64,000 nucleotides of DNA from Leucoraja ocellata (lineage: Eukaryota): contig JAWMAR010000030.1 of NCBI GenBank assembly GCA_036785375.1, positions 5,146,001 through 5,210,000 on the forward strand, written 5' to 3'. The stretch's first letter is position 1. Each line of letters begins with the position of its first letter. Made by a program: the position numbers. Below are positions 21,001-64,000 of the stretch, piece after piece.

Positions 21001-24000
21001 TCAAACACTACACCTCTAAACAAATCTCCATTTCTGTGCTTCCATCTGAAGACTAGCACCAATGTCCAAATTCCTGCTCTGCCATTCAGCAGGAAGTCAG
21101 CATCTTCAGGTTTCAAAATACAATCGCTGCTGTTAATAATCAATATAATCATAGCATGTTGGTTTTACCTATTAAATGATTTTCAGTAAAATATGAACGT
21201 TAATTATATTTTTTGTCCTCAGATTCTGAACACATGCACGTTGGAGGGACTCCCAGCCTTACTCCGCTCTCTACACCAGTGAAGATGAATGTCGGGCCAG
21301 ATGTTAATCAGCCAGTTGTACAGTCCCCTTTAATTCTGCACCCTCTTACTTCATCACTTCAAGTTGGTGTGCCACCTATGCCTTTACCAATTATACTTAA
21401 TCCTGCTTTAATTGAAGCATCATCTCCTGTCCCACTGTTGTCCCCACCACGTCCTGCCAACACGTCGACGGCATCTGAAGTGAACTAATTCCTCTAGATT
21501 AGGAAAGGATCAGTTTATTTAACACGTTCTTCTGTTTTGTATTATGACAATATACTTCTTTTTGTCAAGCTTTTTTAAAAATAATTTCTCACCTTTTCGA
21601 ACCAGTCACTGACTCTAATGTTCAATTTGTGTGAAGAAATCATGCATCCATCACTGCAAAGAATGTATTGCTCCAGATACCATTATTTATTTTTGGAGCA
21701 TTAGCCATATTGAGCGCCAAATACTGTCAAACATTCAATGTAGAGTACGACCGAAGGCAAAAGCCATCTGTGTTGCATTGCAATGTTTTATTCATTATCT
21801 GCTCAAGTTATCAATGTTTCTAAAATGCTGTTTGCCACATTATAATGAAAATGTGTTGTTTGGCTGTAAACTAACATTAAGTTATCTGTATAGTAGCCCT
21901 TTATTTAAGTGATATGTTTCAAGTAATTTTCAGAAGATAAGTGACAATGTGAAGGGCTACAACAGGACCCTGATACTCAGGTTGCATAATACAAAAGAGC
22001 AAGAGATAAACAACCTTGTTACAGTAATAAAATGCATGATTTTTTTTAAATATCATGCAGCAGGATGGATGTTTTACCTAACCCAAATGTGATAGTCAAA
22101 GTATTCCACCCTTTGAAACCTCACGTTAAGTTCCATTTCATAGTAGCTTATTTCCTTTCCCAGGACTTGGCTTGTTTTTGTTGTCAAATGTAAGTTTGTC
22201 AACTTTAGATTTTCACCCCAATTAATAATTTTTGTTCAATGGTTTTGGTTTGTATTTCCAATTGTCTGCAGTTTCTAGGAAGTTTCTATACTGCATATTA
22301 AATGGAAACCTAGTGTAAAACATTAAGTGTATAAATATAAATGAATTTGCAGTGGTTACGATTTTCACTTGTACCAATATATTTAGAGATGTGAAATTGT
22401 AATATAAAAAAAATAATGCCGGTGGATATGTTGAGCTTGCTTTACATTCCTGTCCTGTTTGCTTCCCATATAGCCTGAATTAGCTGTAAATGACCCAAAA
22501 CATAAATAGGCATGAAGGCCAAAGCTTGTGTAATTTGAGACCAACAGAATCTATATTCAAAGTCTTTGTTACTTTGTTCTAAATTTTGTACATTTCACAA
22601 AGATTTTAATTTAATGTGTGCAAAATGGCAACAAAACTTTCTGTGGTTATGGTAAAACTTAAATGATCTGTCCCACATTCTCTGGGTGAGAATGGGGGAA
22701 GGATAGTAGACATAGGTAATGTATATAGAAAGAATGGTTTAAAGAAAATTTAAATGTACTTTTTACAGTAATAAATATCAAAATGTAAAGAAATTTAGCT
22801 GTGGTTTATTGATTTAACTAGGTGATCTGTGAGGAGTTACAGCAAGTAGCTTTCTTTATTGAATTTATATTGAAAAAGCAAATTAAATTATACATCACAT
22901 TTATGCAAAATCTTATTCTGAAACAAATTGTCTGGGCCTGGAAGGTCACAATGGCACGTTCCAGCTAAAAGACAATTGAAACAGACTAGTGGTGCCCATG
23001 CAGTGTTAAATCTTTGGGAACATTTAAGGTGAATTTTGTCAACTTGCTGTAAACATGTCTTGTGTCATGGCCAACAGACCTCAGTTGAATGAATTATAAT
23101 AATTACGATCCAAGGAATTCAAGTTAATAAATTACTTGAATAATGCACAGCATTTCAGAATAGTTCTAAATGTTCCATTACGGTAGGCACACATGACATT
23201 TTGTCTAAACATCTAGCCCAAATAAATGTTATGGTTACATTTAATTCCTTCAGCAACATGGCATAATTTTCCCAACTTGAACATCTCCATTAGGAAAAGA
23301 TGCTTCATTTCAGACTTATGATCTGTTCTTATCTACTTATGCTACTTATTGAGTACCTCCAAAATATGCAGTATTTGATATCTCTTTACAAATGTGCATG
23401 ACAAGGTGATTAATCTATATTTATTTATTTAAAAGTTGTCATCGTCCATGTGTACAACTTCAATGAACAAAGAGAACAAACATGTGCTTTACTCTGCCCT
23501 TTAATTATAAGAGGAAATTAAAAGTTGGTCACGCACAGCCAGGGTTCCACTGACACAAGGCAGCTGGTCAGCCCACTGTTCATGCCAACTTCCATTTAGG
23601 TTCCCTTGTGATCTTACAACTTGTTCTAATATGCCCAGTAACTCGCCCTTGTTACTTTTTACCATTTATCTACAATTGAGATTTAAAAAAAAAGATTAGC
23701 ACGTGTAGACGGGATGTTGGGAATCCAACTGCTTACAAGAGAGTAGCATCCAAGGTAGATAGAAAAGCTAAATCATTCATTTAAACCCACTTGGGTAAAA
23801 CTGGAAACTCGTGCACAGGCTATAGGTTCAAATTGCAGCCACATTATTCTCATGGTCTTATTGGACAATGACCCTCCTTCCACAATATTTAACATACTTT
23901 AAAGAGCCCATGTGTTTCTTTAGAATTACTTGCCTCAGAACATCCAGATATTTTTTTTATAGTCTTTTTAAAACTTGTCACATATGAAATCACACAGCAA

Positions 24001-63000: not shown

Positions 63001-64000
63001 ACCATTCACCTTATCTATGCCCCCCGCGATTTCATATACCTCGCTAAGTATTCTTTCTACCTTAATTACATCCTTCTGATAGCTAGGATTCCAGAACGGC
63101 AATCCCATTACTCCCAGTATGGTCTCTCACATTTTGTAATGACATCAACTCAATCTCAATATTTTGAAGGCAAGATATGAAGGCAAGTGCACCATATGGT
63201 TACTTCTACAGCTCCACACAGCTGAATAAGTAGTAAAAAATGCATTGACCATAGAACTCCGTTGTTGAATTGCAATTAAAATATAGATTAGAGGCACGTT
63301 GCCTTTGATATTTCGATACATTATTGCCTTGTTCTCCCATGATGCCTACTCTGCAAAGAGGATATTGGGGTAAAATATGAAATCAAACTAGATGTAATTG
63401 AAATATATCTAAAATTAGATTGTTATTCAAAAGTGTCAATGTGTGCATGTTAATATTTCATTTGTTCTGAATATCACAATATTATATTTCAAGCAGATTC
63501 TTCACGCATGACAAAGTACAGCTTTATAAATGCTATAACTAAGCTCAATCAATCACAGCAGATAGCTATAAATGTTTTAACAAGTATAAATTACTACTTG
63601 CCCCCAGCTACATCCAAAGGTCCATTGGATTTCCGGAGCTCTTTCACACCATCTAAAAACTCCTTTCCACCTGCTTTTTCCAATGCGTTGCCTGAAATTA
63701 CAATTATTATTCAGAAGATTCATAGGCTATTGGTAGATCTGCTTAAAGTGGTTAAACTAATGAATATGTAACTGGAACTCCATTTGCAAACTTCAAAAAA
63801 GGCATAATTTGATCATTCAAATTGGAAGATTACTCTATGCAATAATTCCCATTTATATTATGACTTTAATTTTCCTGGAGATCCCAAGCAGTTTTCATAC
63901 AAAACAGATGATAAGGATACAGTGGCCTCCATAATGTTTGGGACAAAGACCCATCATTTATTTATTTGCCTCTGTACTCCACAATTTAAGATTTGTAATA

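What the first reader, a model, noticed from the sequence alone, without database searches (positions are those of the whole stretch)
21531..64000. Tandem duplication has produced two apparently intact macroH2A2 genes
Seen: the block starting 43 bp after the GBF1 stop (21531) is repeated in the same orientation from 49754, an offset of 28.2 kb. Copy A is a complete 382-aa ORF. The three visible exons of copy B keep frame and splice sites. Known: jawed vertebrates normally carry one MACROH2A1 and one MACROH2A2 gene, both highly conserved. Inference: this lineage has an extra macro-histone paralogue, possibly the start of a larger array. Private TE insertions in each copy and several percent intron divergence argue against an uncollapsed haplotype.
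Basis: partly seen in the sequence, partly recalled or inferred. Interest (0 to 1): 0.85.

Follow-up and report, generated by a model that had tools for sequence, protein, structure and literature searches.

The report
Tandem duplicate of a macroH2A2-like gene
A stretch carrying a macro-histone (macroH2A2-like) gene is present twice in a row, and both copies look kept by selection, though the complete copy is the one changing faster; this is a modest, lineage-specific addition to a normally two-gene family.

Summary
The repeat is real. Window 21531-31078 is colinear, in the same orientation, with 49754-64000, starting at an offset of 28,223 bp. The left edge is sharp and lies 43 bp after the stop of a GBF1-like gene.

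The gene is on the minus strand. Copy A has eight coding exons that sum to 1146 nt, or 382 codons. One intron has a GC-AG junction. Each exon, searched on its own, matches macroH2A, mostly macroH2A.2.

Copy B shows only its last three coding exons. All three are in frame and have the same splice sites as copy A.

- **Divergence:** 7.1-7.4% over most of the repeat, but 2.0% in a 3.2 kb tract around exon 8. This looks like gene conversion.
- **Indels:** none of the 111 alignment indels falls in an exon.
- **Protein changes:** dN/dS is 0.67 over 139 codons. Copy A carries 6 of the 9 protein-level differences as derived states, copy B none.

A real, old tandem duplication is the best reading. Three things could not be tested here: read depth, the 5' half of copy B, and any larger array. 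The joined protein was not built or searched. Interest is moderate to low.

The parts
1..21488 (+). 3' part of a GBF1-like (large Sec7-family ArfGEF) gene; the last ORF ends with stop TAA at 21486-21488
   Evidence: 3 of 10 plus-strand ORFs (13903-14124, 15191-15391, 18706-18924) hit Pfam PF23325 'GBF1-like TPR' at colinear profile positions 14-58, 89-129 and 130-180 of 185. Scores were 22.0, 19.0 and 25.6 bits; each piece is below the 27-bit cut-off. The other 7 ORFs gave nothing relevant. (Atlas, lead only): Sec7-like_HDS and GBF1-like TPR clusters at 0.94-0.95, mixed with other HEAT-repeat families. The terminal exon itself was not identified independently.
21531..31078 (-). Copy A, the part of the duplicated block that has a counterpart inside the window (3' flank/UTR, exons e9-e7, start of intron 6)
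24463..24625 (-). Copy A exon e9 (160 nt coding, plus stop TAG at 24465-24463); C-terminal part of the macro domain; the protein ends one residue earlier than in copy B
   Evidence: PDB: 6fy5 macroH2A.2 at 1.5e-20, 1yd9 macroH2A.1 at 1e-19
28347..28521 (-). Copy A exon e8 (175 nt), core of the macro domain
   Evidence: Pfam Macro 52.2 bits against a cut-off of 22. PDB: 1zr5 macroH2A.1 at 3.5e-23, 2xd7 macroH2A.2 at 6.5e-21
30190..30279 (-). Copy A exon e7 (90 nt), followed by a GC donor (gcaagt)
   Evidence: PDB: 2xd7 macroH2A.2 at 2.9e-07, 1zr3 macroH2A.1 at 1.5e-06
32877..32976 (-). Copy A exon e6 (100 nt), start of the macro domain
   Evidence: PDB: 2xd7 macroH2A.2 at 7.5e-09 (37.1 bits), 1zr5 macroH2A.1 at 9.9e-07 (30.8 bits). 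No second e6-type exon was found by motif scan of 28586-33928
33929..34039 (-). Copy A exon e5 (111 nt), end of the linker
   Evidence: PDB: 1zr5 at 7.9e-06
35544..35774 (-). Copy A exon e4 (231 nt), H2A C-terminal/docking region plus lysine-rich linker
   Evidence: Pfam Histone_H2A_C 47.9 bits against a cut-off of 20. PDB: 9pm0 macroH2A.1 at 5.9e-14
37420..37526 (-). Copy A exon e3 (107 nt), histone fold
   Evidence: PDB: 9pm0 macroH2A.1 at 2.8e-16. Pfam Histone 23.9 bits, below the 26.4 cut-off
37701..37872 (-). Copy A exon e2 coding part (172 nt), ATG at 37872-37870, N-terminal histone fold. An AG lies directly before the ATG, so the 5' UTR is probably on an upstream exon (inferred)
   Evidence: PDB: 1u35 macroH2A.1 at 6.7e-21, against 5.3e-15 for the best canonical H2A
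42901..43400 (.). CpG island, candidate promoter and first exon of copy A (inferred)
   Evidence: GC 0.50-0.55 and CpG observed/expected 1.04-1.12, against 0.40 for the whole window
44600..49753 (.). Repeat-rich stretch up to the junction. If the event was a simple tandem duplication, this is the right end of the 28,223 bp unit
   Evidence: 58 tblastx hits to other places in the window. DUF5641 (retroelement-associated) at 45275-45520; inverted copies 40840-41303/45488-45930 and 44646-44988/49358-49726. C-rich tandem repeat at 46403-46597
49754..64000 (-). Copy B, running off the window inside intron 6
55735..55900 (-). Copy B exon e9 (163 nt coding, plus stop TAA at 55737-55735); one codon longer than in copy A
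60131..60305 (-). Copy B exon e8 (175 nt)
   Evidence: PDB (first 34 codons): 2xd7 macroH2A.2 at 7.8e-13, 1zr5 macroH2A.1 at 7.8e-12
63602..63691 (-). Copy B exon e7 (90 nt), with the same GC donor
26385..29620 (.). Low-divergence tract of copy A (partner in copy B: 58113-61401); probable gene-conversion tract including e8
   Evidence: 64 of 3203 columns differ (2.0%), against 333 of 4500 (7.4%) and 63 of 883 (7.1%) in the flanks; Fisher p = 4e-30. The four longest identical runs (277, 266, 258, 226) all lie here. In 5000 permutations the longest run was at most 255
52131..55177 (.). Segment private to copy B (3.0 kb), with an internal direct repeat 52376-52613 / 54892-55118 at 82%
   Evidence: No Pfam hit for 3 of its ORFs. 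TE nature not shown
61402..63048 (.). Segment private to copy B (1.6 kb), at the right edge of the low-divergence tract
   Evidence: no hit elsewhere in the window
30385..30926 (.). Segment private to copy A; an interspersed repeat
   Evidence: 11 tblastx hits, to 13498-13696 and 8820-9078

Best explanation
This is a real, fairly old tandem segmental duplication. Its unit starts 43 bp downstream of the GBF1-like stop codon and is probably 28.2 kb long (21531-49753). It carries a whole macroH2A2-like gene on the minus strand: an H2A histone fold, a lysine-rich linker and a macro domain.

Shown here:
- Two colinear copies.
- A complete 382-codon exon model in copy A.
- Three intact exons in copy B.
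- About 7% substitution divergence, plus many indels and private segments.
- A 3.2 kb tract around exon 8 with only 2% divergence.
- No indel and no internal stop in any exon.

Inferred:
- After the duplication both copies stayed under selection against disruptive mutations, so both probably encode working macro-histones that replace H2A in nucleosomes.
- Interlocus gene conversion later homogenised the exon 8 region.
- The two proteins diverged asymmetrically. Copy A, next to GBF1, took on changes at otherwise conserved macro-domain positions and lost its last residue. Copy B kept the ancestral states.

Whether copy A is relaxed or has a new role is open.
For: **Duplication and sharp edge.**

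**Gene identity, exon by exon.** All 8 copy A exons hit macroH2A chains in the PDB. Pfam gives Histone_H2A_C and Macro above their cut-offs.

**Frames and splice sites.**

**Divergence.** 465 of 8724 columns differ overall. The flanks differ at 7.4% and 7.1% and the tract at 2.0%, Fisher p = 4e-30. By comparison, genome-wide heterozygosity is 0.1-1.6% in 16 vertebrate reference genomes (PMC8081667, passages read). There is no gap in the window, whereas that paper describes scaffolded false tandem duplications as having a gap between the copies.

**Selection.** None of the 111 alignment indel events falls in the three shared exons. With flank rates, a neutrally drifting 1146 nt CDS would stay intact with probability about 6e-5, and the 428 nt visible in copy B with probability about 0.03 (the model is rough).

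**Asymmetry.** Human macroH2A.2 and macroH2A.1, as printed, were used as outgroups for the 9 protein-level differences.
- Copy A is derived at 6. Five differ from both human proteins: e7 codon 10, e7 codon 19, e8 codon 33, e9 codon 17 and the terminal codon. One (e8 codon 29) differs from macroH2A.2 only.
- Copy B is derived at 0.
- Three cannot be polarised.
Against: - No reads, so depth and junction-spanning support are untested. PMC8081667 notes that false heterotype duplications arise precisely in regions of raised haplotype divergence, and that they occurred even with assembler settings meant for up to 10% divergence.
- Exons e2-e6, the promoter and the right breakpoint of copy B are outside the window.
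- dN/dS over the 139 shared codons is 0.67 (Nd 9.3, Sd 3.7) and does not differ from 1 (Fisher p = 0.49). On substitutions alone, neutral drift of one copy is therefore not excluded.
- The asymmetry rests on 6 sites against 0 (two-sided binomial p = 0.03 by hand; 0.06 if the site polarised by macroH2A.2 only is dropped), and on two distant human outgroups.
- The indel count comes from a permissive gap scoring and from non-coding sequence, which may overstate the neutral expectation.
- Transitions to transversions are 220:245. This is lower than usual and suggests some alignment noise in the most divergent windows.
- No expression data exist for either copy.
Confidence: 0.7

Rival explanations
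1. The duplication is real, but copy A (or copy B) is an expressed-but-relaxed or dying copy, so the lineage effectively still has one working macroH2A2.
For: - dN/dS is 0.67 and not distinguishable from 1.
- Copy A has radical changes at positions identical in human macroH2A.1, human macroH2A.2 and copy B, for example the three-base block change in e7 codon 19.
- A stop-gain removes the last residue of copy A.
Against: - Copy A keeps a 382-codon frame, all splice sites and a start codon.
- None of the 111 indels falls in an exon. The expectation under neutrality is about 8 frameshifting indels and about 2 stops in copy A.
- The only stop-gain is at the very last codon.
- The histone-fold exons of copy A remain very close to human macroH2A (33 of 35 residues identical in e3).
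Confidence: 0.17
2. This is an assembly artefact. Two diverged haplotypes of one locus were placed in tandem (a false heterotype duplication).
For: - False duplications are a common assembly error and arise where haplotypes are unusually divergent (PMC8081667, passages).
- The window offers no read-level evidence either way.
- A mosaic of low and high divergence could also come from recombination between old haplotypes.
Against: - About 7% substitution divergence, 111 small indels and kilobase-sized private segments are 4-70 times the genome-wide heterozygosity range quoted in that paper (0.1-1.6%).
- There is no N gap anywhere in the window.
- The left edge sits at a precise point with unrelated sequence on its left in copy B.
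- Nine protein-level differences in 139 codons of a highly conserved histone variant would be extreme for alleles.
Confidence: 0.1
3. The two copies are the ancient paralogues macroH2A1 and macroH2A2 lying side by side, not a recent duplicate.
For: Whole exon e8 scores slightly better against macroH2A.1 than against macroH2A.2.
Against: - Introns and 3' flank align at 81-94% identity over 9.5 kb. Paralogues that old could not keep this.
- Both copies share the same rare GC donor.
- Both copies have the same exon-by-exon resemblance pattern.
Confidence: 0.01

Closest known systems
Human MACROH2A2 (macro domain structures 2XD7 and 6FY5)
   Same: It has the same three-part build: H2A fold, basic linker, macro domain. 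Exons e6, e7, e9 and the first 34 codons of B e8 score best against it. Copy B ends two residues after the conserved 'LD'. The 6fy5 chain (198 residues) likewise has two residues left after the matched 'LD' at position 196.
   Different: - Here the gene is present twice in tandem.
- The model is 382 codons long.
- Copy A differs from the human protein at positions that copy B shares with it, and is one residue shorter at the C-terminus.
- No macroH2A.2 histone-fold chain appeared among the PDB hits, so e2-e4 could only be compared with macroH2A.1.
Human/rat MACROH2A1 (1U35, 9PM0, 1ZR3, 1ZR5, 1YD9)
   Same: It is the best PDB match for e2-e5 and for whole e8, with the same domain order.
   Different: By recall, not from a call: macroH2A1 has a pair of mutually exclusive exons at the start of the macro domain. 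Only one exon of that type was found here. That exon scores better against macroH2A.2 (37.1 bits) than against the macroH2A.1 chain 1zr5 (30.8 bits), and the other macroH2A.1 chains did not match it at E up to 1.
Tandem segmental duplications with interlocus gene conversion in vertebrate genomes
   Same: Head-to-tail copies, private insertions and a mosaic of divergent and near-identical tracts. The abstract of PMC13431229 (seen in the search listing only) states that vertebrate genomes favour tandem over interspersed duplications.
   Different: The gene involved is a normally single-copy, slowly evolving histone variant. No TE copy sits at the left breakpoint, where GBF1's last exon lies, so recombination between flanking repeats is not supported as the origin.

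Membership tests
macroH2A histone variants | N-terminal H2A-type histone fold | tested here: met
   - e2: 1u35 macroH2A.1 at 6.7e-21, ahead of canonical H2A at 5.3e-15.
- e3: 9pm0 at 2.8e-16.
- e4: Pfam Histone_H2A_C 47.9 bits against a cut-off of 20.
- Pfam Histone on e2 and e3 alone scores 17.6 and 23.9 bits, below the 26.4 cut-off, as expected for pieces.
macroH2A histone variants | Basic, lysine-rich linker between the histone fold and the macro domain | tested here: met
   The translation of e4 shows a run rich in K, A and P after the H2A C-terminus. It aligns with the linker of 9pm0.
macroH2A histone variants | C-terminal macro domain | tested here: met
   - e8: Pfam Macro 52.2 bits against a cut-off of 22.
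- e6-e9 each hit macroH2A macro-domain chains.
macroH2A histone variants | Histone fold and macro domain joined in one reading frame or transcript | tested here: inconclusive
   Exon phases fit and sum to 1146 nt, or 382 codons, with usable splice sites. No transcript data are available. The joined protein was deliberately not built or searched.
macroH2A2 subtype (as against macroH2A1) | Closer to macroH2A.2 than to macroH2A.1 in sequence | tested here: inconclusive
   Four of five macro-domain comparisons favour macroH2A.2:
- e6: 37.1 against 30.8 bits.
- e7: 32.4 against 30.3 bits.
- e9: 74.7 against 72.1 bits.
- B e8, codons 1-34: 49.3 against 46.3 bits.

Whole e8 favours macroH2A.1, 83.2 against 76.1 bits. 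The margins are small.
macroH2A2 subtype (as against macroH2A1) | No mutually exclusive exon pair at the start of the macro domain (this feature of macroH2A1 is recalled, not from a call) | tested here: met
   A motif scan of all minus-strand frames over 28586-33928 found only the one e6. This test is weak, because it depends on short motifs.
macroH2A2 subtype (as against macroH2A1) | Groups with vertebrate macroH2A2 orthologues in a gene tree; conserved neighbours | not testable with these tools
Genuine tandem segmental duplication | Two colinear, same-orientation copies, with divergence above allelic level | tested here: met
   flanks differ at 7.1-7.4%, against 0.1-1.6% genome-wide heterozygosity in PMC8081667.
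Genuine tandem segmental duplication | Full read depth on both copies and reads spanning the junction | not testable with these tools
   No reads are available.
Interlocus gene conversion | Tract of significantly lower divergence or longer identical runs than the rest of the duplicate | tested here: met
   2.0% in the tract against 7.1-7.4% in the flanks, Fisher p = 4e-30. The longest identical run is 277 columns, and none of 5000 permutations exceeded 255.

The most novel reading that the evidence does not exclude
Copy A is a third, functionally distinct macro-histone. On this reading it is a macroH2A2 daughter gene kept intact for tens of millions of years in a cartilaginous-fish lineage. 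Its macro-domain surface has been remodelled: charge reversal, loss of a conserved arginine and a shortened C-terminus. Copy B carries on the ancestral role, and gene conversion still couples the two. The pair might be the visible edge of a larger array.
Probability: 0.25. Interest if true: 0.55.

Novelty: new member of a known kind. Interest (0 to 1): 0.35.

Why it matters
By general knowledge, not from a call, macroH2A is usually a two-gene family in jawed vertebrates and evolves slowly. A lineage that has kept an extra copy gives a natural experiment. It could show which parts of the macro domain can change, whether dosage or a new binding surface was selected, and how gene conversion shapes young histone-variant paralogues.

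The finding also matters for annotation. The two copies differ at only 13 exonic bases in the three shared exons, so RNA-seq and ChIP reads will cross-map unless the copies are told apart.

It is nonetheless an ordinary kind of event, a tandem gene duplicate. No paper in the held library describes it. Automatic genome annotations, which I could not consult, may already list both genes.

Tried and rejected
- **Atlas search with exon e4.** Recognition was 1526. The best hits were bacterial hypothetical proteins at 0.83-0.86, driven by the lysine-rich linker. Uninformative.
- **Atlas search with a GBF1-region ORF.** It returned a mix of HEAT-repeat families: Tra1, Sec7-like_HDS, BIG2_C, GBF1-like TPR. 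This is a lead only.
- **Rfam scan of the whole window.** No match.
- **Pfam on ORFs of the copy B private segments and the spacer.** Only DUF5641 (45275-45520) passed its cut-off, so the TE nature of the B-private segments is not shown.
- **Repeat-mediated origin.** I considered recombination between flanking repeats and rejected it for the left breakpoint. The sequence left of 21531 is GBF1's last exon, not a repeat.
- **Internal direct repeat of the 3 kb B-private segment as an LTR pair for dating.** Rejected. The repeats are not at the ends of the segment, and they are more diverged (82% identity) than the gene copies are.
- **Literature.**
  - all 20 listed papers have 0 occurrences of macroH2A2.
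  - of 37 papers (20 listed), only one of those listed mentions a shark, once.
  - no paper on macroH2A gene number in cartilaginous fish.
  - 0 papers hold both 'macroH2A2' and 'skate'.
  - 12 papers, none relevant by title.
  - the paper I recalled on macroH2A evolution (DOI tried) is not held.
  - PMC8232725 has no passage on gene duplication.
- **Not done, by instruction.** The joined 382-residue protein was not built, searched or folded. No structure was predicted for that reason.
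Full report
**Observation.** The window has no N runs. Self-BLAST finds a chain of same-strand blocks linking 21531-31078 to 49754-64000. The offset at the start is 28,223 bp. It grows along the chain because copy B carries extra segments at 52131-55177, 57748-58112 and 61402-63048, while copy A has an extra segment at about 30385-30926. The left edge is abrupt: the bases left of 21531 and left of 49754 are unrelated. Over 8,724 ungapped aligned columns, 465 differ, or 5.3%.

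**What lies upstream.** Three of ten plus-strand ORFs between 13.9 and 18.9 kb hit the Pfam family 'GBF1-like TPR' at successive profile positions. Each piece is below the cut-off, but they are colinear. An Atlas look-up of another ORF gave Sec7-family clusters among other HEAT-repeat families (a lead only). A GBF1-like gene ending at 21488 is therefore likely. Its last exon was not identified on its own.

**The gene.** It lies on the minus strand. Stop-to-stop frames and their splice sites give eight coding exons in copy A:
- e2: 37872-37701 (ATG at 37872)
- e3: 37526-37420
- e4: 35774-35544
- e5: 34039-33929
- e6: 32976-32877
- e7: 30279-30190
- e8: 28521-28347
- e9: 24625-24466, then stop TAG

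The lengths sum to 1146 nt, or 382 codons, with matching phases. All acceptors are AG. Six donors are GT, and the e7 donor is GC (gcaagt) in both copies. The 382-residue protein was not assembled, searched or folded, and its length is arithmetic only.

Every exon on its own matches macroH2A chains in the PDB:

| Exon | Best hit | E-value |
|---|---|---|
| e2 | 1u35 | 6.7e-21 |
| e3 | 9pm0 | 2.8e-16 |
| e4 | 9pm0 | 5.9e-14 |
| e5 | 1zr5 | 7.9e-06 |
| e6 | 2xd7 | 7.5e-09 |
| e7 | 2xd7 | 2.9e-07 |
| e8 | 1zr5 | 3.5e-23 |
| e9 | 6fy5 | 1.5e-20 |

Pfam gives Histone_H2A_C on e4 and Macro on e8 above their cut-offs. It gives sub-threshold Histone on e2 and e3, sub-threshold Macro on e7, and nothing on e5, e6 and e9. 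The gene is a macroH2A.

**Which macroH2A.** e6, e7, e9 and the first 34 codons of copy B's e8 score better against human macroH2A.2. Whole e8 scores better against macroH2A.1. The margins are 2-7 bits. Only one e6-type exon was found. I do not take the window for human. Its macro-histone exons differ from the human proteins at many positions (for example 14 of 52 in e9), and it carries Tc1-type transposons.

**Copy B.** Only e7 (63691-63602), e8 (60305-60131) and e9 (55900-55738, stop TAA) are in the window. The copy runs off the end inside intron 6. Frames and splice sites are identical to copy A.

**Age and history.** Divergence is not even. It is 7.4% (333 of 4500 columns) from 21531 to 26246 and 7.1% (63 of 883) from 29646 to 31078. 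It is only 2.0% (64 of 3203) in 26385-29620, with sub-windows of 0.3-1.3%. The difference gives Fisher p = 4e-30. The four longest identical runs all lie in this tract, and the longest (277 columns) exceeds all 5000 permutations. The tract contains e8 and is bounded on both sides by B-private segments. Interlocus gene conversion after the duplication is the simplest reading. Strong conservation of 3 kb of intron is much less likely, because the 3' UTR region shows no such conservation. A Jukes-Cantor distance of about 0.08 for the unconverted parts, at an assumed rate of 1e-9 per site per year (recalled, not from a call), gives roughly 40 million years, and more if the lineage evolves more slowly. 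This is an inference.

**Selection.** The alignment holds 111 indel events, none in the three shared exons. With flank rates, a neutrally drifting 1146 nt coding sequence would be expected to collect about 8 frameshifting indels and about 2 stops, giving P(intact) of about 6e-5. For the 428 nt seen in copy B, P is about 0.03. The model is rough: it uses permissive gap scoring, non-coding indel rates, and an assumed 4.5% of substitutions creating stops. Both copies therefore look protected against disruption.

Substitutions tell a softer story. Over 139 shared codons Nd is 9.3 and Sd is 3.7, so dN/dS = 0.67, not different from 1 (p = 0.49). I used the human macroH2A.2 and macroH2A.1 residues printed as outgroups for the 9 protein-level differences:
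- Copy A is derived at six: e7 codons 10 and 19, e8 codons 29 and 33, e9 codon 17, and the terminal codon, which is a stop in copy A and lysine in copy B.
- Copy B is derived at none.
- Three cannot be polarised.

By hand, 6 against 0 gives a two-sided binomial p of 0.03. Dropping the site that is supported by macroH2A.2 only gives 0.06. The change at e7 codon 19 is a block of three adjacent bases. So the complete copy next to GBF1 is the faster-changing one, and the partly seen copy B is the conservative one.

**Artefact or not.** The decisive test, read depth and spanning reads, cannot be run here. Against an uncollapsed haplotype:
- About 7% divergence, many indels and kilobase-sized private segments. 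Genome-wide heterozygosity is 0.1-1.6% in 16 vertebrate reference genomes (PMC8081667, passages read; its supplementary tables were not seen).
- No gap in the window.
- Nine protein differences in a very conserved gene.

For it: the same paper says false duplications arise exactly where haplotypes are unusually divergent. I put the artefact at about 0.1.

**Origin.** If the event was a simple tandem duplication, the unit is 21531-49753. It would then include the CpG island at 42901-43400 and about 6 kb upstream, so copy B would have a promoter. This is inferred, not seen. There is no repeat at the left breakpoint, so an end-joining or replication-based origin is more likely than recombination between repeats.

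**Known or new.** No paper in the held library links macroH2A2 to a duplication in cartilaginous fish. The macroH2A evolution paper I recalled is not held. Public genome annotations could not be consulted. It is a new member of a known kind, an extra tandem paralogue of a well-known histone variant, with the usual aftermath of such duplications. Interest is moderate to low: 0.35.

Noticed in passing
window 30188-30189 and 63600-63601 (minus strand): The intron after exon e7 starts with GC (gcaagt) instead of GT in both copies. It is a GC-AG intron that predates the duplication.
   Followed up: partly
window 16104-17725: A Tc1/mariner-type transposon sits in an intron of the GBF1-like gene. It has inverted ends 16104-16322 / 17517-17725 at 81.5%. 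Its ORFs hit HTH_Tnp_Tc3_2 (67.3 bits) and DDE_3 (52.1 bits).
   Followed up: partly
window 31052-32418; copy B 63976-64000: A degraded Tc1-like element lies in intron 6 of copy A. It has inverted ends 31052-31219 / 32250-32418 at 85% and a sub-threshold HTH_Tnp_Tc3_2 hit at 31907-32056. The A/B alignment runs into its first bases (30927-31078 ~ 63851-64000), so it was probably there before the duplication.
   Followed up: partly
window 21486-22030: The 3' ends are convergent. A minus-strand AATAAA lies at 21519-21514, only 26 nt from the GBF1-like stop and just outside the duplicated block. The first plus-strand poly-A signal after that stop is at 22026, inside the block. The two genes' 3' UTRs probably overlap, and copy B carries an orphan copy of the GBF1-side UTR sequence.
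   Followed up: no
window 30223-30221 vs 63635-63633 (minus strand, e7 codon 19): Three adjacent bases differ (TTT in copy A, CGG in copy B), turning a conserved arginine into phenylalanine. This looks like one multi-base event.
   Followed up: partly
window 46403-46597: A C-rich (G-rich on the other strand) tandem repeat with periods of 6, 22 and 61, in the spacer between the copies.
   Followed up: no
window 20157-20340, 41731-41846, 36654-36716: A short interspersed repeat with copies up to 96.5% identical. It occurs in the GBF1-like gene's last intron region, upstream of copy A, and in copy A's intron 3. It appears to be a young repeat family.
   Followed up: no
window 40840-41303 / 45488-45930 and 44646-44988 / 49358-49726: Two pairs of inverted repeat copies (88% and 76%) lie around the inter-copy spacer. 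The second pair ends 28 bp from the junction at 49754. A DUF5641 retroelement fragment lies at 45275-45520.
   Followed up: partly
A/B alignment, whole: Transitions to transversions are 220:245, lower than I would expect for vertebrate non-coding DNA. Part of it may be alignment noise in the most divergent windows (23.7-24.0 kb and 25.6-26.2 kb).
   Followed up: no
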